A stretch of DNA of 20,000 nucleotides from positions 107,336-127,335 of the IMG/VR virus record IMGVR_UViG_2898099943_000001, one strand, 5' to 3'. The notes under the pieces were generated by a model. The model had not been told where the DNA came from. It made no database searches and worked only from the letters and a program-made list of their open reading frames with translations. Shown piece by piece: positions 5,465-20,000 of the stretch. The translations under genes were made by a program, and so were the position numbers. The stretch's first letter is position 1. Every line of letters begins with the position of its first letter. The DNA is from an uncultured virus (IMG/VR IMGVR_UViG_2898099943_000001) (taxonomy: Duplodnaviria; Heunggongvirae; Uroviricota; Caudoviricetes).

Positions 5465-6946
5465 TTGCCAAAGAAAATAGAAGAGTTGTCAGATTTTGAA
5501 AAGAACTTAGTATACGACCAACAGCGTGAAGAAGGTTTGTATGTATTATCCATATACAAAGACACAGAATTGTATTATGAATACAAATTAAAACCAGAAA
5601 TGCTTGTTAGCAAAGGTTGGAAGGTATTCTATAGTATTGCACAAGACTTAATAGATAACAGTGGTGTGCACAAACTAGACGCTGTTACAGTGGGAACTTA
5701 TGTATCTGGACAAACTGAAAAGTTTCAAGACCTATACAATTCTTTTGGTGGTTATCAAGAAATCGCTGATGGTATGGATGTGGTTGAAGAAAGCAATATC
5801 GAAACATACTACAACAATATCCAAAAATACCAAGTGTTGAGAATTTTGTACAAGAAAGGTTTCCCTATCGAAAGTCAATGGAAAAAACTTAAAAGTATGC
5901 CTTTAGAAGAACTCAACGACTATTTTACTACTGTAATCAACAATGCTTTTATTGATACAGATAGTCAAAACGAAAAGGTTGGAGATATTTTTAGAGGCAT
6001 GGACGAAATGATAGAGTCCGCTAATCTTGGTAAGGAAGCTGGTTTACCACTAAAGTCAAAGCTAATGGAAAATATACAACATGGCTTACGTTTGGGTAAT
6101 ATTACTATGCTGGCAGCTCATTCTGGTGTTGGTAAAAGTTTCTTAACAACCTTAATTCATGTTCAATCATGTATTGAGAATAAAGAGTCTGTATTAATTA
6201 TTGCTAACGAAGAAGATAGAAGTAAATGGCAACAGGAATTGTTGGTTAGATTTATTAATACAAAACATAAGAATGCTTATTTCAATAAGAACCGTTTCTT
6301 TGATGGCAATTTTTCAGATAAGGAAATGGAGTATCTAAAAGAAGCAAGTAATTGGTACAAAGCCAACATTGAAGAAAACACTATACGATTTGTAAGTATG
6401 GAAAGTTTTAGTATGGCTAAGACAATCAGATTGATTAAGAAGTATGCAACAATGTATGATGTTAAGTATTTCGTATTAGATACGTTAAAGTTAGATAATG
6501 ACACAGGCTCACATGTTAGTGATAAAAGTTGGTTAGTTATGCAACAAAACATGGTTAGATTGTATAACGTTATCAAGGAATCCAGCTTGAATGTTCATGT
6601 CTGGGTTACAGCTCAATTATCTAAAGGTGGACGCAATTCAAGATATTTAGACCAATCACAATTAGGTGTTTCTAAAAATATCATTGACGTTGCCTCATCT
6701 GTTATGTTAGTTCGTGATGTAACTCAAAGTGAAAAAGACCCAAAGGCTAAGGCTTCTGAAAGATTAACGGTGCATAATGCAGCTGGATATGAAGTTGAAT
6801 TACAACCAGAAGATGATTATGTGATTGTATTCTGGGACAAGAACCGTCAAGGGACAACTAATGAACAAGTTGTATTAAAGGTAAATCGAGGTTTAAATAC
6901 CTTTACAGATGTAGGAACTTGTCGTTTAGATAGAGCATTGGTATAG
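5465..6946 (+). CDS. dnaB: DnaB-like replicative helicase (phage type)
   Basis: Walker A AHSGVGKS, Walker B YFVLDTLK, TAQLS motif, C-terminal KNRQG arginine-finger motif. Confidence 0.85.
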   Translation: MPKKIEELSDFEKNLVYDQQREEGLYVLSIYKDTELYYEYKLKPEMLVSKGWKVFYSIAQDLIDNSGVHKLDAVTVGTYVSGQTEKFQDLYNSFGGYQEIADGMDVVEESNIETYYNNIQKYQVLRILYKKGFPIESQWKKLKSMPLEELNDYFTTVINNAFIDTDSQNEKVGDIFRGMDEMIESANLGKEAGLPLKSKLMENIQHGLRLGNITMLAAHSGVGKSFLTTLIHVQSCIENKESVLIIANEEDRSKWQQELLVRFINTKHKNAYFNKNRFFDGNFSDKEMEYLKEASNWYKANIEENTIRFVSMESFSMAKTIRLIKKYATMYDVKYFVLDTLKLDNDTGSHVSDKSWLVMQQNMVRLYNVIKESSLNVHVWVTAQLSKGGRNSRYLDQSQLGVSKNIIDVASSVMLVRDVTQSEKDPKAKASERLTVHNAAGYEVELQPEDDYVIVFWDKNRQGTTNEQVVLKVNRGLNTFTDVGTCRLDRALV

Positions 6947-7584: not shown

Positions 7585-7870
7585 TGAAGGTCGTGGAACT
7601 TTCAAGTTAAGACGTGATTTTAACATGGCAAAGTTCAAGTCGATTATTCATTATGAAATGTTCACAACTCTTGACCTTAAAGAGTATCACCGTTCTAAAG
7701 GTGCTATATCAGCTGTTTTAAGTAAAGATGATGTGGACAGGGCTATTGAGTCTGGTAGACCAATTTTGGTTTATCATGAAACAAGTAATCATGTAGCAGA
7801 TATGCTAGATTATTACAATGTTGATGACGCTCAAGCATTGAAAATAGTAAAGGCTGTGAAAAGCTCATGA
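7565..7870 (+). CDS. Hypothetical protein (about 100 aa; start may be ATG 7568)
   Basis: Strong RBS GGGAGGAGG; stop overlaps the next ATG (ATGA). Confidence 0.75.
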   Translation: MMEIVTDEGRGTFKLRRDFNMAKFKSIIHYEMFTTLDLKEYHRSKGAISAVLSKDDVDRAIESGRPILVYHETSNHVADMLDYYNVDDAQALKIVKAVKSS

Positions 7871-11040: not shown

Positions 11041-11808
11041 TTGGAAAACAATACAATAGATAAGTTTGATAACACAGGTGCATGGTATAACGTGTTGAAA
11101 CCAACATGGTATGTAGAACAAATGAAAGGCTGGTCTTTTCCTAGCTACATGCTGTTGATGTTTGGTTTGGGTGCAATTATTGGTATGACAGCTGCTAGTG
11201 GTATCAATGGTATCTCAATTTTAACTTTGTTGGCTGGTACATTAGGTTTCACATGTACTATTTCTATCACAAACGCTAAACCATTAAACGGTATTTTTGG
11301 TTTGGTTAGTGCTTTGATTTACATTACAGTAGCTATTCATGCTAAGAACTTCAATGATGTTTTATTGCAAACTGTTTATATCCTGTTATTAGACTTACCA
11401 GTATTGCTTATGCCATCTTGGGCAAAGAACGTTGAAGAAAAGGTACGTTTCTTACATGAAGGTGGTAAAGGTAAGCGTAATTGGTTATTAACATTAGTAT
11501 TCTTTGTAGTAGTTGCTTTGGTGTTGTACTACTCAGATACACATTGGTTCATTAGCCCACGTCCAGTTGTAGATAGTGTGGCAGCAGCTATTGGTATTAC
11601 AGGTGCTATGTTAACTACATTACGTTTCTCAGAAAGTTATTATTTCTGGATTGCACAAGGTCTTTCTTCTGTTGTTTTATGGGGAATTACCGCAGCAAGT
11701 GGAGCAGTTAACTGGGTATTATTCGTAACATACCTATTGTACTTATCTAATGACGCAGTTGCATTATTCGATAAGAAGATTAGCTGGTTTCACCATACTA
11801 ATAAATAA
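11041..11808 (+). CDS. pnuC: PnuC-family (nicotinamide riboside / nucleoside-type) membrane transporter
   Basis: About 7-8 hydrophobic helices; motifs KPLNGIFGLVS, PVVDS and LTTLRFSESYYFWIAQ typical of Pnu transporters; TTG start after GAGGT; substrate not determinable from sequence. Confidence 0.8.
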   Translation: MENNTIDKFDNTGAWYNVLKPTWYVEQMKGWSFPSYMLLMFGLGAIIGMTAASGINGISILTLLAGTLGFTCTISITNAKPLNGIFGLVSALIYITVAIHAKNFNDVLLQTVYILLLDLPVLLMPSWAKNVEEKVRFLHEGGKGKRNWLLTLVFFVVVALVLYYSDTHWFISPRPVVDSVAAAIGITGAMLTTLRFSESYYFWIAQGLSSVVLWGITAASGAVNWVLFVTYLLYLSNDAVALFDKKISWFHHTNK

Positions 11809-14776: not shown

Positions 14777-15147
14777 CAAGTGCTGAAAGAAAGTTCAATA
14801 AAGCAGTACGTAGATTAGACATGTACTTAGAAGATGGTAATATGGTCTCTGCTGACATTGAACTAAAATCTATGCGTAGAGTATATGATGAAATGAAGAA
14901 ACTAGAAAGTCATAGTGTTACCTTCTGGCTTTTTGTTACAGCAGCTCTAGTTGTGTATATTGGTATGGGGTGGGGTAAGTATGAAATACCAACCATATTT
15001 GTTACAGGAGTAGAGGCAATATCATTTGCTTTGATGACTTATGTTTCTAATATAGTAGACAATTTCATTGATAATATTGAATACTGGGAAAATGAGTATA
15101 ACAGACATAAGGAGGTGAATAGAACGGTTGACGACAGTATCAACTAA
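14773..15147 (+). CDS. Two-TM membrane protein (124 aa)
   Basis: RBS AAGGAGG; two hydrophobic segments. Confidence 0.75.
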   Translation: MTSAERKFNKAVRRLDMYLEDGNMVSADIELKSMRRVYDEMKKLESHSVTFWLFVTAALVVYIGMGWGKYEIPTIFVTGVEAISFALMTYVSNIVDNFIDNIEYWENEYNRHKEVNRTVDDSIN

Positions 15148-15388
15148 TAATGTAGTAACAGTATATACTAAGAATAATTGTCCGCAATGCAAGATAACAA
15201 AACGTAAGTTGCATTCTATGGGAATTGACTATCATGAATACAATGTAGATGAAGACCCCAAAGCATTAGATTATTTGTTAGAAAGAGGCTTGCGTAGTTT
15301 ACCTGTTGTAGTTACAGAAGATGATACATGGACTGGGCTACGAATGGACAAGTTAAACAATCTTCAAAAAAAGATGAATATTTCTTAG
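15128..15388 (+). CDS. nrdH: Glutaredoxin-like NrdH redoxin
   Basis: VTVYTKNNCPQCKITK, GLRSLPVV and WTGLRMDKL motifs; RBS AAGGAGGTG. Confidence 0.9.
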   Translation: MTTVSTNNVVTVYTKNNCPQCKITKRKLHSMGIDYHEYNVDEDPKALDYLLERGLRSLPVVVTEDDTWTGLRMDKLNNLQKKMNIS

Positions 15389-15395
15389 TTTTCTG

Positions 15396-15426
15396 TTGAC
15401 TTTTATTTTTTATATGGTATTATAAT
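15396..15426 (+). promoter_or_regulatory. Sigma-A type promoter at the head of the ncRNA/tnpB region
   Basis: TTGACT 15396-15401; TGnTATTAT (15418-15423) or TATAAT (15421-15426). Confidence 0.7.
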
Positions 15427-15433
15427 ATATGTA

Positions 15434-15463
15434 GTTAAGAGTTAAGAGAATAAACGAATAACT
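15434..15463 (+). repeat. Dispersed 30-nt motif, copy 2
   Basis: GTTAAGAGTTAAGAGAATAAACGAATAACT, just after the promoter like copy 1. Confidence 0.75.
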
Positions 15464-15543
15464 CAAGGCTACAACAAAACAATTAAATAAATCTATTATA
15501 TGTGTAGAACTTACAAAATGTGTCCTGTTAAGTGAGTTCAACA

Positions 15544-15622
15544 ATCGGATAGCTTAATGGCAGAGCGTACGAGTATGATAACGATACTTGTAAGGTTTGG
15601 TGTTCAATTCATCAATCCGATA
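15544..15622 (+). tRNA. Aberrant tRNA-like RNA with 9-bp anticodon stem (possibly tRNA-Ile derived)
   Basis: ATCGGAT/ATCCGAT acceptor, D arm GCTTAATGGCAGAGC, stem TACGAGTAT/ATACTTGTA with loop GATAACG, T loop GTTCAATTC. Confidence 0.6.
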
Positions 15623-15771
15623 TTTGTCACGATAACTATAATGATACTTGATTTTGTGCATTCACAATGAATGTGCATCCTTTTACTAAAATATTTTGTT
15701 TATTTTCTTTACTTATGTAGCGGTTATCGTGGCGACACCTCCAAAAGATTGGTAGGTGGGTGATTAACGGA

Positions 15772-15858
15772 TTTGCCCATCTACATAGGGTTTGGTTAGA
15801 ATATTGGTTTACAACTCCTTCCGTCAAGAAGTTACCAAATCCTATGTAGGTGAACAAA
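15772..15858 (+). ncRNA. 25-bp stem with 37-nt loop carrying an anti-SD motif
   Basis: TTTGCCCATCTACATAGGGTTTGGT / ACCAAATCCTATGTAGGTGAACAAA; G-U wobbles favour the + strand; loop contains ACAACTCCTTCC. Confidence 0.55.
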
Positions 15859-15910
15859 ACTTAGTTTACCTAAACAACTTTCGCAAATTTAAAAAAGGGT
15901 GGTGAGTAAG

Positions 15911-17068
15911 ATGTTAAAAGGTATTAAGTTGCGTATATATCCAAATAAGAAACAACGTGAACAACTAGATATTATGTTTGGGAATAGTCGTTTTGTTTGG
16001 AATAATATGTCAGCTATGATGAATGAGCGTTATAAGAATAACAAAGATTTGCCTATATTGAGTGGTTATGACTTGAATAACTTACTAAAGCCATTGAAAG
16101 TTGAATATCCATTTTTGAAAGAGAGTGATAGTTCTGCTTTACAAGTAGATTGCCAAAATCTATATCAAGCGTGGAAGAACTTCTTTAATTCTGGTTTTGG
16201 CAAGCCTAGATTTAAATCTAGGAAATTCTATAAGCAATCATATACGGGTAAGTTGGTAAGTATCCATGTAATAGCTAAAAGATATATGAAAATGCCTAAG
16301 CTAGGATATATTAAGTCTAGCAAAACATCCCAGCTCACCGATTGTAAGATTAAACGTTATACACTAAGTCATGATACAACTGGTCGTTATTATTTATCTT
16401 TACAGGTAGAATGTGAAAATCAAGCATTGTTACCTAAGACAAATAAATCAGTTGGACTAGATTTAGGTGTAGCAGACTTAGCTATTTCTTCTGATGGAAT
16501 TAAATATAATACATTTCATGTGGAAGATTTAGAAGATAAAGCTAAATTGTGGCAACGTAAGTTTTCTAAACGTAGACATCAAGCTAAAGTTTGTATTGAG
16601 AGTGATAAATACTCTAAAGTATTAGTACCTAGAGATTTTGATGATTTTAAAAATCTGCAAAAAGCTCAAAGAGCTAAAGCTAGATTACAAGCTAAAATAG
16701 CCAACACACGCAAAGATTACTTGCATAAATTAACCACAATGTTAGTTAAACAATACGATATTATCGTTATTGAAGATTTAAAGGCTAAGAATATGATGAA
16801 AAATCATAAACTAGCTAAAGCAATAGCTAACGGTTCATGGTATTTGTTCCGTTCTATGTTGGAATATAAGTGTAATTGGTATGGCAAACAACTAATAGTA
16901 GTTAGTCCCAAATACACTTCACAAGTGTGTTCTAACTGCGGTGTAAATACAGGTAAGAAACCATTAGATGTTCGTGAGTGGACTTGTGATAATTGTGGTA
17001 TACATCACGATAGAGATATTAACGCTGCTAGAAACATCTTGGCTAAAGGATTAAAAGAAGTAGCTTAA
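15911..17068 (+). CDS. tnpB: IS200/IS605/IS607-family TnpB RNA-guided endonuclease (TnpB-1)
   Basis: N-terminal HTH ([10 protein letters not shown]), RuvC-I GLDLG, RuvC-II IEDL, Zn finger CSNC/CDNC, Ruv[17 protein letters not shown] 15911 after GGTGGTGA (track start GTG 15899). Confidence 0.93.
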
Positions 17069-17187
17069 ATAAACATAAAGGTATGGGACGTGCCTCGGTA
17101 ATATATCTAGGTTCTGTAAGTTAGGCTTAGTTCTAAATACTACCTAGAGTTCCCAGAAACCACCGTTTTTAATCGGTGTGTAGTCCA
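17069..17187 (+). ncRNA. TnpB-1 omegaRNA scaffold / element right end; putative guide starts near 17188
   Basis: 5' hairpin 17079-17095 with loop GGGAC complementary to terminal GTCC (17183-17186); central TCTAGGT/ACCTAGA stem; end hairpin CACCG/CGGTG 17161-17178. Confidence 0.7.
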
Positions 17188-17294
17188 TCAGCGAGTAGAC
17201 GGTTTACTTTTCAATGTATTTTTTATGCTCTTGATTATATATTTCCATTTTTAAGCTACTCGTTGATATATCCATCTTAATCGGAGGTGTAAGT

Positions 17295-17510
17295 TTGGAT
17301 AAATTAAGTAATATGATTGATAGATTTCTCTTAACGAGAACATGGTATTTAATTCAATGGTTGTTTATTATGACTGTTGCGTTTGACCTAATCTTTTATA
17401 GTTATGGTTTTTGGACTAAGTTATTCTATTTAGCTGGTTTGGCAGCTGGGTTTAGTAATATAAAAGAATGGCATAAAAAGCATATCTATCAATCAAAACG
17501 TAAACATTAA
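17295..17510 (+). CDS. Small two-TM membrane protein (71 aa)
   Basis: TTG start after GGAGGTG; two hydrophobic segments and a basic tail. Confidence 0.7.
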   Translation: MDKLSNMIDRFLLTRTWYLIQWLFIMTVAFDLIFYSYGFWTKLFYLAGLAAGFSNIKEWHKKHIYQSKRKH

Positions 17511-17521
17511 AATACATAGGC

Positions 17522-17655
17522 AGCTTTGATGGTTGCTAAAGGGAACGGGTTGGTTTTTCACATCCTTTCAATGAATATAGATAATTAACCCCTATTTACT
17601 AATACGATACTGACAAAGTTTTTCGTCCCGTTCTCTCTAGGAGCTATCAAAAGCT
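17522..17655 (+). ncRNA. Long imperfect stem enclosing an anti-SD loop
   Basis: AGCTTTGATGGTT..GGGAACGGG / CCCGTTCTC..AGCTATCAAAAGCT; loop contains TTTTTCACATCCTTTC. Confidence 0.5.
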
Positions 17656-17678
17656 CTCCCAAAACAAGTCTACTATAT

Positions 17679-17708
17679 GTTAAGAGTTTAGAGAATAAAC
17701 GAGTAGAC
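17679..17708 (+). repeat. Dispersed 30-nt motif, copy 3
   Basis: GTTAAGAGTTTAGAGAATAAACGAGTAGAC, enclosed by a GTCTACT/AGTAGAC stem. Confidence 0.7.
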
Positions 17709-17873
17709 ATTTGGTATGTAAAATGTTGGACTGTCGGGAACACTATACCACACAAGCTAATATGCGGCTTTTACATACCACGCTCACAGACTTTAAAGGG
17801 AATGTGGGAGCGGATAGGCGAACGCGAATAGTGTAGTTAGTAAACCTATGCGTAATTATTTATCCTAGTTGGT

Positions 17874-17948
17874 AGTCATGTGGTGTATTCGGGTAACACG
17901 CTCGTCCTTGAAACGAGAGCAGCAAGGTTCAATTCTTTGCCATGACAT
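17874..17948 (+). tRNA. tRNA-Gln(TTG)-like, atypical
   Basis: GTCATG/CATGAC acceptor, D stem GTGT/ACAC, anticodon stem CTCGT/ACGAG with loop CCTTGAA (C33), T loop GTTCAATTC; no encoded CCA. Confidence 0.7.
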
Positions 17949-18048
17949 AGAGGTGGAAACACCTCGAAACAAACATTTATTAATTCGTTCATTTTTTATT
18001 GGTTGATTATTTTGCGTATTAATCAACACTCCTTTTTAAATTATTTTG

Positions 18049-18100
18049 TTGCCGCAGATGTAAAAGGTACATTTTATGAGTTCGACTCCTAATGTGGTAA
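18049..18100 (+). ncRNA. Degenerate tRNA-like RNA lacking an anticodon arm
   Basis: TTGCCGCA/TGTGGTAA closing stem, ATGTA-AAAGG-TACAT D-like arm, GAGTTCGACTC T-like arm. Confidence 0.45.
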
Positions 18101-18244
18101 TAGGGGGTAGGGCATGACTACCCCGAGATTATAACTTTGCGTTAAGTAATAATGCGACATTAATAAGTTAATTCATGAACAGGTTCATTACGACTTACGG
18201 ATTGGTTCATGGTTTAGATTTCCTCCTTTTAGAATTAGAAGGTT

Positions 18245-18305
18245 AGCAACGTAGCTCAACTGGTAGAGCGGAAGGATGATGTGGGTTCGAGTCCCACCGT
18301 TGCAA
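18245..18305 (+). ncRNA. tRNA-like RNA with canonical D and T arms but no anticodon arm
   Basis: GCAACG-TA-GCTCAACTGGTAGAGC-GGAAGGATGAT-GTGGGTTCGAGTCCCAC-CGTTGC. Confidence 0.75.
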
Positions 18306-18351
18306 TTAGCCAATATGGCTATAAATATACAATAGAAAAGAGGTGAGATAG

Positions 18352-19608
18352 ATGAAGACAATGAGTGAGTTGAAATACCATTATGGTTTAAAGATGTGCA
18401 TTCATCCTAGTACAAAGCAAAAACAAATCATTAAGATGAACAGTGATGTATCTAGGGCTGTATATAACGCTATGGTTGCGATTGATAAAGAGTTGTATCA
18501 ACTCAAACAGGTAAAACTACCTATTGATACAATCCAAACACGTATTGTTGAATTGGAACAACGCAAGAAAGCTCAAAACTATTTAGCAACGCACTATACT
18601 TACATGAAACACCCTTATATTGATAGTCATTGTCGTTCTATGGCAATGCGTTCTTATAAAGCTGCATGGAATATGTTTAGAAAAGTTCATAACGCTGGTA
18701 CACCTAATTTTCATAAGAAAACTTACGAGGAGAAGTATCAAACAAGTGGAGCTTATACGAGTAAGAAGAAACCAGTTAATATGTGGACTGGCTCAATTAG
18801 ATTTGTAGACAATAAACATATTAATATTCCTAAGCTGGGTATTATTCGTGTGAGTGGTTCGTATAGAAAACTACTAGATAATAAAGATGATATTAGAATT
18901 GGCACAACTACTATTTCTAAAAATGCTTTTGGTATCTACTACGTTTCTATGCAGTTGGGTTCAGATACACCTTTTGTTAAAGAATTGCCTAAAACAAATT
19001 CTCAAATCGGAATCGACTTGAATACAGATAACTTCTTAACAACAAGCGAAGGTAATGTTATAGCTAACCCGAGATTTTATAGAACAATCAAGGGTAGATT
19101 AGCTAAGGCTCAACGTAAGTTGTCACGTAGATACGTTAGAGCTAAAAAAGAAGGTCGTTCCTTGCGTGACAGTAAGAATTACCAAAAACAACGCATAGTG
19201 GTATCAAAACTTATGAATAAAGTGCGTAATCAACGTAATAAATTCTTGGACGAGATGTCGATAACACTTATCAAGAACCACGATTTGGTTGTGGCAGAAA
19301 ATCTAAGAAGTAGAAATATGCTCAAAAATCACGCTTTAGCTATGTCTATTAGTGATGTAGGTTGGCGAACATTCCTACAAAAACTAGAATACAAAGCTGA
19401 ATTATATGGTAAGACTTTTATTACTGTAAATCCTAAAAATACTACACAAACATGTAGCGAATGTGGACATGTTATGGGAACAAAAGATACGGATAAGCTA
19501 ACACTAAGAGATAGAAGTTGGGCTTGTCCTAGCTGTAACACTTACCATATACGTGATGTAAACGCAGCGAAGAATATCCTAAGTAAAGGATTAAAACAAT
19601 TAGCCTAG
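18352..19608 (+). CDS. tnpB: TnpB-family RNA-guided endonuclease (TnpB-2), CRISPR-array-associated; candidate nascent Cas12
   Basis: HTH (GLKMCIHPSTKQ), RuvC-I GIDLN, RuvC-II VAENL, Zn finger CSEC/CPSC, RuvC-III RDVNAAKNI; RBS GAGGTGA; no tnpA adjacent. Confidence 0.92.
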   Translation: MKTMSELKYHYGLKMCIHPSTKQKQIIKMNSDVSRAVYNAMVAIDKELYQLKQVKLPIDTIQTRIVELEQRKKAQNYLATHYTYMKHPYIDSHCRSMAMRSYKAAWNMFRKVHNAGTPNFHKKTYEEKYQTSGAYTSKKKPVNMWTGSIRFVDNKHINIPKLGIIRVSGSYRKLLDNKDDIRIGTTTISKNAFGIYYVSMQLGSDTPFVKELPKTNSQIGIDLNTDNFLTTSEGNVIANPRFYRTIKGRLAKAQRKLSRRYVRAKKEGRSLRDSKNYQKQRIVVSKLMNKVRNQRNKFLDEMSITLIKNHDLVVAENLRSRNMLKNHALAMSISDVGWRTFLQKLEYKAELYGKTFITVNPKNTTQTCSECGHVMGTKDTDKLTLRDRSWACPSCNTYHIRDVNAAKNILSKGLKQLA

Positions 19609-19750
19609 CAATAGGTAGTCCGTTTGTCTGTTGCGGACTTTAAAGCATTTGGTAATTATCATGTAAGACCTTTATTTCAGATTTTTCTGATACGAAGGCA
19701 ACGATGTATCTAATGAAATTTTGGCAACCCTAAAAAATTAGGAGTTCCCA
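19609..19750 (+). ncRNA. omegaRNA-derived scaffold (candidate tracr-like RNA) of TnpB-2
   Basis: Hairpin AGTCCG/CGGACT (19617-19639) with loop TTTGTCTGTTG; shares GGTAAT, TGTAAG and GAGTTCCCA landmarks, in the same order, with the TnpB-1 omegaRNA. Confidence 0.65.
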
Positions 19751-19790
19751 AAACCCTAGTACTGTGGGATTTATTGGTCTGATTTTTAGT
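19751..19790 (+). promoter_or_regulatory. Short CRISPR leader-like segment
   Basis: 40 nt between the scaffold and repeat 1, ending TTTTTAGT, similar to the ends of type I-E leaders. Confidence 0.5.
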
Positions 19791-20000
19791 GTGTTACCCA
19801 TATGTACGTGGGACAGACTTCATTGTCATATCGTATTATTTAACATTTAAAGTGTTACCCATATGTACGTGGGACAGACTATCAAGAAACTATAAAGAAT
19901 TGCAGGAGGTTAGTGTTACCCATATGTACGTGGGACAGACTCATAGCTCACAAGCAATCACCATGCGATATATGTGTTACCCATATGTACGTGGGATAGA
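19791..20000 (+). CRISPR. CRISPR array: repeat GTGTTACCCATATGTACGTGGGACAGACT (29 nt), 32-nt spacers; runs off the window end
   Basis: Identical repeats at 19791-19819, 19852-19880 and 19913-19941; fourth at 19974-20000 (truncated, C>T at 19997); three unique 32-nt spacers; exact 61-nt period; internal hairpin CCCAT/GTGGG. Confidence 0.95.

What the first reader, a model, noticed from the sequence alone, without database searches (positions are those of the whole stretch)
19751..20000. Array has type I-E geometry but an altered repeat 3' end: possible use of host Cas1-Cas2
Seen: 29+32 nt units with an exact 61-nt period, a GTGTT start, a CCCA..TGGG hairpin and a leader ending TTTTAGT, all I-E-like. 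The 3' end GACAGACT differs from typical I-E handles (E. coli ATAAACCG). Known: in type I-E the last repeat base derives from the PAM. Inference: the phage could acquire spacers through host I-E adaptation (and perhaps Cas6e processing) while loading them on TnpB. If so, the TnpB TAM should be compatible with a host PAM ending in T.
Basis: inference. Interest (0 to 1): 0.75.

Follow-up and report, generated by a model that had tools for sequence, protein, structure and literature searches.

The report
Phage TnpB array mimicking host CRISPR
A large phage-plasmid of the gut bacterium Ligilactobacillus salivarius carries a small RNA-guided nuclease (TnpB) followed by a CRISPR array whose repeats look like the host's own type I-E repeats at the front and like the nuclease's guide-RNA tail at the back, which suggests that it borrows the host's machinery to collect new targets.

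Summary
In detail: 29-nt repeats and 32-nt spacers at an exact 61-nt period. The array runs across the record's 94-nt end overlap: 5 repeats plus one degenerate copy.

It follows a 418-aa TnpB with intact RuvC residues. The 182-nt "leader" is a full homologue of the omega-RNA scaffold of array-less IS200/IS605 relatives (47 bits).

The element belongs to the pMP1046B family of L. salivarius. That species has type I-E systems with 29-bp repeats, 32-bp spacers and an AAT PAM. The I-E repeat matches the phage repeat at 19 of 29 positions, 10 of the first 11, with the same hairpin base and last two bases.

The altered 3' tail ACAGAC is complementary to the loop GTCTGT of the scaffold's first hairpin, where relatives pair loop and tail.

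Best reading: hybrid repeats, with spacers probably supplied in trans by host I-E Cas1-Cas2 and guides used by TnpB. Adaptation in trans is unproven: only one protospacer was found (flank TATAAT), and strain JCM1046 lacks I-E. New variant of a known kind.

The parts
18352..19608 (+). TnpB-2: a 418-aa TnpB-type RNA-guided nuclease gene directly upstream of the array
   Evidence: Pfam finds HTH_OrfB_IS605, OrfB_IS605 and Cas12f1-like_TNB. It aligns to ISDra2 TnpB (8BF8/8EXA), E 3e-35, over residues 17-413. D222, E316 and D402 align with D191, E278 and D361; that these three ISDra2 residues are the catalytic ones is recalled, not from a call. The CxxC..CxxC zinc finger is kept. The same gene sits before an array in L007, L008, L009, L037, L038 and pMP1046B.
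19597..19774 (+).
   Evidence: Covariance model R1 was built only from the omega RNAs of 14 array-less relatives. It matches here over its full length (model positions 1-186, 47.2 bits, E about 1e-11), and likewise in L007, L008, L009, L037 and L038. No sigma-70-like promoter lies between the gene and the array on the + strand, apart from a 9-of-12 match inside repeat 1.
19618..19638 (+). First scaffold hairpin GTCCG-TTTGTCTGTTG-CGGAC; its loop bases GTCTGT (19626-19631) are complementary to the repeat tail ACAGAC
   Evidence: The chance of a 6-nt complement is 0.003-0.006. In the homologous loop of array-less relatives, CAACC pairs with the omega-RNA tail GGTTG, with compensatory variants.
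19754..19769 (+). Vestigial terminal hairpin of the scaffold (CCCTAGTACTGTGGGA), homologous to omega-RNA stem 4 and no longer followed by the AGAC tail
   Evidence: In the model alignment, GGGAUUUAU stands in L008 (whose scaffold end reads the same as the window's) where relatives have GGUGGUUGAC. In L009 the same place reads GGGATAGACT plus 32 nt plus repeat 1, which is an intact omega RNA.
19770..19790 (+). 21-nt linker between the scaffold hairpin and repeat 1 (ends TTTTAGT)
   Evidence: It is nearly the same in L007, L008 and L037 and is replaced in L009.
19791..19819 (+). Repeat 1 (29 nt), GTGTTACCCATATGTACGTGGGACAGACT
19820..19851 (+). Spacer 1 (32 nt)
19852..19880 (+). Repeat 2
19881..19912 (+). 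Spacer 2 (32 nt)
19913..19941 (+). Repeat 3
19942..19973 (+). Spacer 3 (32 nt), part of the 94-nt end overlap of the record
19974..20000 (+). Repeat 4 (variant GGGATAGACT), cut by the window end. The array continues at the record start (locus L006): repeat 4 ends at 96, spacer 4 is 97-128, repeat 5 is 129-157 (ends ACA), a 33-nt spacer is 158-190, and the degenerate repeat is 191-219

Best explanation
The array is the guide store of a TnpB-derived, TranC-like (type V-U-like) RNA-guided nuclease. It is carried by a circular phage-plasmid of about 127 kb of Ligilactobacillus salivarius (pMP1046B family).

The DNA between gene and array is the old omega-RNA scaffold. In the window it has lost its own tail and guide, so it would act like a tracrRNA.

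Each repeat is a hybrid. Its first 22 nt (GTGTTA plus the hairpin CCCAT..GTGGG) copy the host's type I-E repeat in sequence and geometry. Its last 7 nt (ACAGACT) are not the I-E handle. They are the omega-RNA tail, which pairs with the loop GTCTGT of the scaffold's first hairpin (the pseudoknot next to the guide).

Inferred mechanism. New 32-nt spacers are put in by the host's I-E Cas1-Cas2 when the element sits in an I-E-positive strain. These come from AAT-flanked DNA, and the T becomes the last repeat base. The transcript runs from tnpB through scaffold and array. Repeat-spacer units dock on the scaffold through the 6-bp pseudoknot and guide TnpB to DNA with a (T)AAT-type motif, probably in competing sibling elements or phages.

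Shown here: anatomy, homologies, host species, the host I-E repeat, geometry and PAM, and the complementarity. Inferred: acquisition in trans, RNA processing, loading and cleavage.
For: Gene and scaffold: TnpB has intact D222, E316, D402 and its zinc finger. A covariance model of array-less relatives' omega RNAs hits 19597-19774 at 47.2 bits over the full model length.

Linkage: all 3 close relatives in IMG/VR (92-97% identity) and both in metagenomes (91-94%) have the array after the same gene. The 5 assessable IMG/VR relatives at 59-60% identity have an ordinary omega RNA and no array.

Intermediate form: L009 keeps an intact omega RNA (..GGGATAGACT plus 32 nt) followed by the array.

Pseudoknot: the tail ACAGAC is complementary to the loop GTCTGT, chance 0.003-0.006. 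In the same loop, 13 of 16 relatives have a Watson-Crick complement of at least 5 nt to their own tail, with compensatory variants: GGTTG:CAACC, GGGTTG:CAACCC, AGTTG:CAACT, TCGTTG:CAACGA. One more has 4 pairs plus a G-U, and 2 have none (read from the printed sequences). The G003 paralogue also fits. Published structures place a pseudoknot next to the guide in omega RNA and in all Cas12 guides (PMC10097598, passages).

Host: PnuC is 99.2% identical to that of pMP1046B of L. salivarius JCM1046, which carries the same TnpB, scaffold and array.

Host I-E: 29-bp repeats, 32-bp spacers and an AAT PAM (PMC11288051, passages). Repeat GTGTTCCCCATGTATGTGGGGGTGATCC(T) in 13 of 13 L. salivarius rows seen (supplement S1). 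By hand, it equals the phage repeat at 19 of 29 positions, 10 of the first 11, with the same C-G, A-T and T-G stem base and the same last CT.

No cas genes of its own: no Cas1, I-E Cas2 or Cas6e family match in 0 of 4 element records.

Turnover: no spacer is shared among the 4 elements. A metagenome contig joins repeat 1 directly to the trailer spacer, which is a shorter array.

Last repeat base: T before each of the window's spacers 1-4, but A in repeat 5 before the terminal 33-nt unit. This fits a PAM-derived base (I-E hallmark, preprint 10.1101/2023.06.23.546257, passages).

Motifs: 14 of 15 distinct insertion sites of the IS relatives are preceded by TTTAAT. Spacer 3 of L007 and pMP1046B matches the window's element at 29 of 33 positions, with a perfect 17-nt 5' part and the flank TATAAT.
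Against: No acquisition, processing or cleavage was observed.

Only one protospacer was found, and it is imperfect (4 mismatches). No other spacer matched GenBank phages, PLSDB plasmids, the four sibling elements or, for the two spacers tried, IMG/VR.

I-E is the rarest of the three L. salivarius systems (18 against 109 and 62). JCM1046, which carries the element, has only type III-A.

The host I-E leader could not be compared.

The hairpin sits 1 nt further 3' than in the host repeat, and its loop is 6 nt instead of 4 nt. The 6-bp pseudoknot is a weak link for a two-RNA guide. Its register is shifted by 2 nt relative to the relatives.

In L038 the loop reads GTCCGT, giving one mismatch.

The TAM of TnpB-2 itself is unknown; TTTAAT comes from relatives only 59% identical.

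The host of the window's own record is inferred from a named relative, not known.
Confidence: 0.58

Rival explanations
1. TranC-like array born and maintained without any host Cas1-Cas2. The repeat arose only by tandem duplication of the omega-RNA terminal hairpin plus guide. Spacers change by recombination. The likeness to the host I-E repeat is coincidence or convergence on a stable hairpin.
For: The repeat tail and hairpin resemble the omega-RNA 3' ends of relatives, for example the G003 paralogue CCCCATGTCTTTAGACTGGGGCAGTTGAC. L009 shows an omega RNA directly continued by repeats. The literature proposes serial duplication of omega-RNA segments as the origin of type V arrays (PMC10691335, passages). 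JCM1046 has no I-E. The arrays are short, 3-5 repeats.
Against: Duplication does not explain the exact 32-nt spacers of unrelated sequence, or the complete spacer turnover between elements whose TnpB is 92-97% identical. It does not explain the 29+32 geometry identical to the host's I-E arrays, or 10 of 11 identical bases at the repeat's 5' end (GTGTTnCCCAT). That 5' end has no counterpart in relatives' omega RNAs, which read CTCACAAGC there.
Confidence: 0.22
2. Ordinary phage mini-array. The crRNAs are made by host Cas6e and loaded into host I-E Cascade to attack competitors. The neighbouring TnpB is unrelated.
For: Host-like I-E geometry, 5' end and hairpin. The element has no cas genes.
Against: The part that would become the Cascade 5' handle differs from the host's. 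ACAGACT against GTGATCCT agrees at only 3 of the last 7 aligned positions (hand comparison). It is instead complementary to the TnpB scaffold loop. The array always follows TnpB plus scaffold, in 6 of 6 close relatives. No genome among 185,579 species representatives holds this repeat apart from one single-copy chance match. JCM1046 has no I-E.
Confidence: 0.08
3. RNA anti-CRISPR decoy. The host-like repeats soak up Cas6e or Cascade subunits and so blunt host I-E immunity against the element.
For: Repeat mimicry by phage-borne repeats is a described strategy (PMC10651486, seen only as a search listing and the start of its abstract). The hairpin and 5' end mimic the host I-E repeat.
Against: Decoys need no uniform 32-nt spacers, no spacer turnover and no tail matched to a TnpB scaffold. 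It could be a side effect and not the main role.
Confidence: 0.05

Closest known systems
TranC (transposon-CRISPR intermediate) and type V-U systems, including the phage-borne CauTranC9
   Same: A TnpB-sized RuvC nuclease without cas1 or cas2, a short array downstream of the gene, and a guide scaffold derived from the transposon's right-end (omega) RNA. CauTranC9 was found in a Caudoviricetes genome, has no expanded domains, has 5 repeats and targets phages (preprint 10.64898/2026.03.27.714800, passages). Typical TnpB clades have CRISPR associations without adaptation modules (PMC10691335, passages).
   Different: The repeats here are 29 nt, against 32-38 bp reported for TranC clades 3, 9, 11 and 20. 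Here they mimic the host's I-E repeat. The repeat holds the whole terminal hairpin plus the pseudoknot strand. It is not one strand of a split stem. LaTranC (9JFO) aligns only to the C-terminal 130 residues, whereas ISDra2 TnpB aligns end to end. Membership in a named TranC clade was not tested. The founding TranC paper was not in the library; I saw only citations of it.
Plasmid type IV-A3 CRISPR-Cas acquiring spacers in trans with host type I-E Cas1-Cas2e
   Same: A mobile element with an array but no adaptation genes. Repeats and leader resemble the host I-E array. The last base of the acquisition motif is built in with the spacer. The interference motif is compatible with the I-E PAM. The targets are rival elements (preprint 10.1101/2023.06.23.546257, passages).
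   Different: There the effector is a multi-subunit type IV complex with its own Cas6, and acquisition was shown by experiment. Here the effector is a single TnpB-like nuclease with an omega-RNA scaffold, only the front of the repeat is I-E-like, and nothing has been tested at the bench.
Chromosomal type I-E arrays of Ligilactobacillus salivarius
   Same: 29-bp repeat, 32-bp spacer, GTGTT start, the CCCAT..GTGGG stem with a T-G pair, final CT, and a PAM ending in T.
   Different: No I-E cas genes on the element. The 3' handle differs. The hairpin is shifted by 1 nt and has a 6-nt loop. The arrays have 3-5 repeats, against 9-26 in the host rows seen.
IS200/IS605 TnpB with omega RNA (ISDra2 type)
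   Same: Protein architecture and catalytic residues. A scaffold downstream of the gene. The order guide, pseudoknot, stem.
   Different: No tnpA is found next to TnpB-2 in the window, whereas the 59% relatives have a divergent tnpA. The locus is fixed in all relatives. There are many guides instead of one. The scaffold has lost its own tail and guide in the window.

Membership tests
CRISPR array (generic) | At least 3 near-identical direct repeats separated by unique spacers of uniform length | tested here: met
   5 repeats of 29 nt and 4 spacers of 32 nt, plus a 33-nt terminal spacer and a degenerate repeat
Type I-E CRISPR array | 29-nt repeat with 32-nt spacer, and a 5' GTnTT plus C-rich stem hairpin like the host's I-E repeat | tested here: met
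   19 of 29 positions and 10 of the first 11 are identical to the L. salivarius I-E consensus. The geometry is identical (comparison by hand)
Type I-E CRISPR array | Conserved 8-nt 3' handle of the repeat (host: GTGATCCT), which becomes the Cascade 5' handle | tested here: not met
   The tail is ACAGACT. It agrees at 3 of the last 7 aligned positions, and the hairpin is shifted by 1 nt
Type I-E CRISPR array | Adjacent cas3, cas8e, cse2, cas7, cas5, cas6e, cas1 and cas2 genes | tested here: not met
   No Cas1 (PF01867), I-E Cas2 (PF09707) or Cas6e (PF08798) match in 0 of 4 element records. The other Cascade genes were not searched
Type V / TranC-like system | A TnpB/Cas12-type RuvC nuclease with intact D-E-D directly upstream of the array, on the same strand | tested here: met
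Type V / TranC-like system | A scaffold RNA between gene and array that derives from the transposon's right-end (omega) RNA | tested here: met
   Covariance model of array-less relatives: 47.2 bits over its full length at 19597-19774
Type V / TranC-like system | Repeat to scaffold (anti-repeat) pairing that rebuilds the guide-proximal pseudoknot or stem | tested here: inconclusive
   Only a 6-bp complement (ACAGAC:GTCTGT) in the homologous loop, chance 0.003-0.006. No long anti-repeat was found
Type V / TranC-like system | RNA-guided, TAM/PAM-dependent DNA cleavage with array-derived guides | not testable with these tools
   Needs expression and TAM assays
Mobile IS200/IS605 element | tnpA or transposon ends, and presence/absence polymorphism or several copies | tested here: not met
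   This holds for TnpB-2: same locus in all relatives and no tnpA nearby. By contrast, the second TnpB of the window (15899-17068) is missing from three metagenome variants
In-trans adaptation by host I-E Cas1-Cas2 (as in type IV-A3) | The host species encodes I-E adaptation genes; repeat similarity; PAM compatibility; the last PAM base is kept as the last repeat base | tested here: met
   repeat 5 ends in A before the terminal 33-nt unit. But I-E is in a minority of strains and absent from JCM1046
In-trans adaptation by host I-E Cas1-Cas2 (as in type IV-A3) | Leader similarity to the host I-E leader, and observed Cas1-Cas2-dependent spacer insertion | not testable with these tools
Insertion needs an experiment

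The most novel reading that the evidence does not exclude
This family may show the birth of a type V CRISPR system caught in the act, driven by a foreign integrase. The terminal hairpin of a phage-plasmid TnpB's omega RNA happened to resemble the host's I-E repeat. A sister TnpB in G003 still has an ordinary omega RNA whose stem shares CCCCATGT with the host repeat. Host I-E Cas1-Cas2 then integrated spacers there. This made a new array with hybrid repeats, and the omega RNA became split exactly where Cas6e cuts an I-E repeat, at the 3' base of the hairpin. A Cas6e-cut unit (ACAGACU plus guide) could then dock by the pseudoknot onto a scaffold that keeps its own hairpin but has lost its tail. 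L009 (intact omega RNA plus array) and the window (tail-less scaffold plus array) would be successive stages.
Probability: 0.25. Interest if true: 0.9.

Novelty: new variant of a known kind. Interest (0 to 1): 0.72.

Why it matters
How TnpB transposon nucleases acquired CRISPR arrays, and how array-bearing but cas1-less type V and TranC systems obtain new spacers, are open questions. The published proposals are duplication of omega-RNA segments or landing next to an existing array.

Here the repeat itself carries the signature of two parents. The front matches the host's I-E repeat, which is the side an I-E integrase and Cas6e would read. The back matches the nuclease's own guide RNA, and the scaffold loop has changed to stay complementary.

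That makes in-trans adaptation by a class 1 system for a TnpB-level class 2 effector directly testable, in a culturable and genetically tractable lactobacillus with a known I-E PAM and TXTL assays already set up.

It also recasts pMP1046B, described in 2014 as a putative chromid, as a phage-plasmid with its own RNA-guided weapon, probably aimed at sibling elements. A compact 418-aa nuclease with natural multi-guide arrays may also interest genome-editing work.

Tried and rejected
Protospacers. The window array against GenBank phages gave only chance hits of E 2-8. The L008 array gave none. The L009 array gave three weak low-complexity hits. The window array against PLSDB matched only the repeats of pMP1046B. 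24-nt parts of window spacers 3 and 2 against IMG/VR gave 0 hits each. There are no self-targets in the window's own record within 7 mismatches. Cross-searches among the four elements found only the L007 spacer-3 match. A TAM consensus from protospacers could therefore not be derived; n = 1.

Repeat elsewhere. A degenerate repeat pattern found only the three known sibling records in IMG/VR. In 185,579 species genomes it found one single-copy match in a Sulfurovum MAG, taken as chance.

Whole-region DNA searches against GenBank phages found nothing. Portal and helicase searches showed only distant relatives at 24-34% identity. The endolysin pointed vaguely to Lactococcus and Streptococcus phages and was superseded by the PnuC hit. 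Rfam found only tRNAs in 15000-20000. Earlier findings of this scan gave nothing.

Hypotheses dropped. I first read the repeat as purely omega-RNA-derived and its I-E look as coincidence. I dropped that after seeing the host repeat. An internal pseudoknot between the repeat's 5' end and its tail folds well only in L009 and shows no consistent covariation. G003's extra 50 kb is not host flank: it holds phage-like genes, and its ends do not align to the window's record except at TnpB copies.

Sequencing runs. Parts of the stretch without contig cover are not interpreted. A possible orphan omega-RNA piece at 17686-17795 was not matched by model R1.
Full report
**1. Observation**

Window 19791-20000 holds four copies of GTGTTACCCATATGTACGTGGGACAGACT. 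They start 61 nt apart and are separated by 32-nt unique spacers. The fourth copy reads GGGATAGA and is cut by the window end.

The window is the last 20 kb of a 127,335-bp virus record. The first 94 bases of that record repeat window 19907-20000, unique spacer 3 included. The "direct terminal repeat" of the record is therefore an assembly overlap of a circular molecule that happens to lie inside the array.

The whole array has 5 repeats and 4 spacers of 32 nt. It ends with a 33-nt unit and a degenerate sixth repeat. The hairpin is kept across 7 repeat variants: 95.2% of cells are paired and 2 of 6 pairs change on both sides. Slid controls reach at most 64% paired. The shuffle control is weak, 44 of 500.

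**2. The gene and the "leader"**

Directly upstream, on the same strand, lies a 418-aa TnpB (18352-19608). It has the three Pfam domains of the family. It aligns end to end with ISDra2 TnpB (E 3e-35). D222, E316 and D402 stand opposite D191, E278 and D361, and the zinc finger is intact. That these three ISDra2 residues are the catalytic ones is recalled knowledge.

I built a covariance model from the sequence downstream of 14 array-less relatives. It matches window 19597-19774 over its whole length (47.2 bits, E about 1e-11). It matches the same place in L007, L008, L009, L037 and L038. The 182 nt between gene and array are thus a homologue of the omega-RNA scaffold, not a CRISPR leader. Between the gene and repeat 1 the scan found no promoter-like site on the + strand. 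Its only + strand sites there are 9-of-12 matches: one inside the gene and one starting in repeat 1.

**3. Relatives**

- Of 9 IMG/VR loci encoding relatives, the 3 at 92-97% identity all carry an array after the gene.
- The 5 assessable loci at 59-60% identity carry none and end in an ordinary omega RNA (...stem-TTTA-stem-TGGTTGAC, then the guide). One locus is cut right after the gene.
- Of 80 metagenome loci, the 2 at 91-94% identity have the repeat: L037 is cut in spacer 1, and L038 is a decayed array.
- I printed the downstream sequence of the others (43 distinct segments) and saw omega-RNA ends and no arrays. I did not run a repeat finder on them.
- The 59% relatives are canonical IS200/IS605 elements with a divergent tnpA. 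14 of 15 distinct insertion sites are preceded by TTTAAT, and one by ATTAAT. By the usual rule this gives their TAM.
- No spacer is shared among the four element records.
- L009 is an intermediate. Its scaffold still ends ...GGGATAGACT, followed by exactly 32 nt and then the first repeat. The array ends in a terminator-like hairpin with a T run. In the window, L007, L008 and L037, the scaffold keeps its last hairpin (19754-19769) but has lost the AGAC tail.

**4. Why the 3' end is "altered"**

In omega RNA the bases just before the guide form a pseudoknot. This feature is conserved in all Cas12 guide RNAs (PMC10097598, passages).

In 13 of 16 relatives that I tabulated, the loop of the first hairpin after the stop codon holds a Watson-Crick complement of at least 5 nt to that element's own tail. 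The versions are compensatory: CAACC:GGTTG, CAACCC:GGGTTG, CAACT:AGTTG and CAACGA:TCGTTG. One more relative has 4 pairs plus a G-U, and 2 have none (read from the printed sequences). A paralogue in G003 fits as well.

In the window the homologous loop reads TTTGTCTGTTG. GTCTGT (19626-19631) is the exact complement of the repeat tail ACAGAC. The chance of this is 0.003-0.006. No other part of the repeat is complementary to the loop.

The tail is therefore best read as the pseudoknot strand of the omega RNA, now supplied by each repeat.

Caveats: the helix is only 6 bp, its register is shifted by 2 nt relative to the relatives, and L038 has one mismatch.

**5. The host and its I-E system**

The PnuC gene of the window (11041-11808) is 99.2% identical to that of NZ_CP007648.1. 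This is plasmid pMP1046B of L. salivarius JCM1046: 129,218 bp, circular by PCR, and described in 2014 as a putative chromid. That record has the same TnpB, scaffold and a 3-repeat array.

The window's record encodes a portal, a terminase, an endolysin, a 3,091-aa open frame beside the tail genes and integrases. The family therefore looks like phage-plasmids. Contigs of four animal-gut runs, three labelled chicken gut and one a feces run, from four studies, carry close relatives.

For L. salivarius, PMC11288051 (passages) reports 109 II-A, 62 III-A and 18 I-E systems. The commonest I-E repeat is 29 bp and the commonest spacer 32 bp. The PAM 5'-AAT-3' was confirmed in cell-free assays.

Its supplement S1 gives the I-E repeat as GTGTTCCCCATGTATGTGGGGGTGATCC(T) in all 13 L. 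salivarius rows that I saw. I aligned it by hand, without gaps, to the phage repeat:

- 19 of 29 positions agree.
- 10 of the first 11 agree (GTGTTnCCCAT).
- The stem base is the same (C-G pairs, then A-T, then T-G).
- The final CT agrees.
- Only 3 of the last 7 positions agree.

The repeat is thus a hybrid: a host I-E front and an omega-RNA tail.

The four element records have no match to Cas1, I-E Cas2 or Cas6e families.

**6.

In type I-E the last base of the acquisition motif enters the array with the spacer (preprint 10.1101/2023.06.23.546257, passages).

- Here the host PAM ends in T, and the repeats end in T before each of the window's four 32-nt spacers.
- Repeat 5, which precedes the terminal 33-nt unit, ends in A.
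- The relatives' TAM TTTAAT ends in AAT.
- One protospacer was found. Spacer 3 of L007 and pMP1046B matches window 15427-15459 and the same site in G002 at 29 of 33 positions. The first 17 nt match perfectly, and the 5' flank is TGGTATTATAAT.
- The carrier's own copy of that site has a 1-nt insertion at position 8. This would protect it and suggests that sibling elements are targets.
- A metagenome contig joins repeat 1 directly to the trailer spacer, which is a shorter array in a close variant.

All this fits acquisition in trans by host I-E Cas1-Cas2, as shown experimentally for plasmid type IV-A3 systems.

It does not prove it. There is one imperfect protospacer, no leader comparison and no experiment. 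I-E is the rarest system in the species, and JCM1046 has only type III-A. Two of that strain's III-A spacers match pMP1046B perfectly.

**7. Mechanism proposed, with odds**

| Step | Status | Odds |
|---|---|---|
| TnpB-linked array with an omega-RNA-derived scaffold | shown | about 0.9 |
| Repeat tail pairs with the scaffold loop to rebuild the guide-proximal pseudoknot, so the scaffold works like a tracrRNA | inferred | about 0.6 |
| Spacers come from host I-E Cas1-Cas2 | inferred | about 0.55-0.6 |
| Host Cas6e cuts at the 3' base of the hairpin, leaving ACAGACU plus guide, which is what the tail-less scaffold lacks | speculative | about 0.25 |
| Targets are competing sibling elements or phages | one data point | about 0.5 |

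**8. Comparison and novelty**

TnpB-like nucleases with arrays and no adaptation genes are known. These include V-U variants, TranC, and CauTranC9 from a phage genome with 38-bp repeats. In-trans use of I-E adaptation by a mobile element is known for type IV-A3.

I found no description of a TnpB or TranC array with host I-E-type hybrid repeats, nor of this array on pMP1046B. The 2014 genome paper mentions only the chromosomal CRISPR in the passages read. A search of the 2024 paper's supplement file 2 for the plasmid's accession found it only in sheets S3 and S4, not in the array table S1. The founding TranC paper was not held, and supplements of bioRxiv preprints are closed, so a listing there cannot be excluded.

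I rate it a new variant of a known kind.

Noticed in passing
window 19907-20000 = record start 1-94 (L006): The record's 'direct terminal repeat' is a 94-nt assembly overlap lying inside the CRISPR array (repeat 3, spacer 3 and most of repeat 4). The element is circular, as shown by PCR for the named relative pMP1046B.
   Followed up: yes
window about 15896-17208: A second TnpB (389 aa, 15899-17068) with its own omega-RNA-like tail (...CAGCGAGTAGAC at 17200) behaves as a mobile insertion. Contigs of three metagenome runs join about 15895 to 17209-17256 without it. In one, 189 other letters stand there; in the other two it is not known what lies between.
   Followed up: partly
window 7030, 15434, 17679; record 22309(-), 106700 and others: A dispersed motif GTTAAGAGTTTAGAGAATAAAC(G/A)A sits a few bases downstream of strong sigma-70-like promoters (TTGACT..TATAAT) at five or more sites of the element. 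It looks like a shared 5' leader of its transcription units. Its function is unknown.
   Followed up: partly
L007 4593-4625 (= pMP1046B array, L121 about 6077-6109) against window 15427-15459: The third spacer of the sibling element matches the promoter-proximal motif of the window's element (29 of 33 positions, perfect 17-nt 5' part, flank TATAAT). The carrier's own copy has a 1-nt insertion in the seed. This suggests conflict between sibling phage-plasmids.
   Followed up: partly
L117 8019-9455 (-), record G003: G003 holds a paralogous TnpB (66% identical to TnpB-2) with an ordinary single-guide omega RNA. Its terminal stem shares the 8-mer CCCCATGT with the L. salivarius I-E repeat. This may be a pre-adaptation for I-E integrase mis-integration.
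   Followed up: partly
NZ_CP007648.1 (pMP1046B) positions 7684 and 23503: According to supplement S3 of PMC11288051, two spacers of the chromosomal type III-A array of JCM1046 match its own plasmid pMP1046B perfectly. The host therefore carries immunity memory against the resident element.
   Followed up: no
whole record G000 (L029-L034): The family to which pMP1046B belongs was published as a putative chromid. It encodes a portal, a terminase, an endolysin with LysM repeats, a 3,091-aa open frame beside the tail genes, a split DNA polymerase and two integrases. It is better described as a phage-plasmid.
   Followed up: partly
window 17686-17795: A stretch with omega-RNA-like pieces (CATTTGGTATGTAAAATGTTGGAC, CACACAAGC, and an end CTCACAGACT) may be a decayed orphan scaffold between the two TnpB genes. 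Model R1 did not match it.
   Followed up: partly
window 17875-17947; L006 703-794: tRNA-Gln(ttg) lies upstream of the TnpB-array unit and tRNA-Ser(gct) lies downstream. In L008 the array's last repeat is joined directly to sequence near the tRNA-Ser end, which is a deletion of about 640 nt.
   Followed up: no
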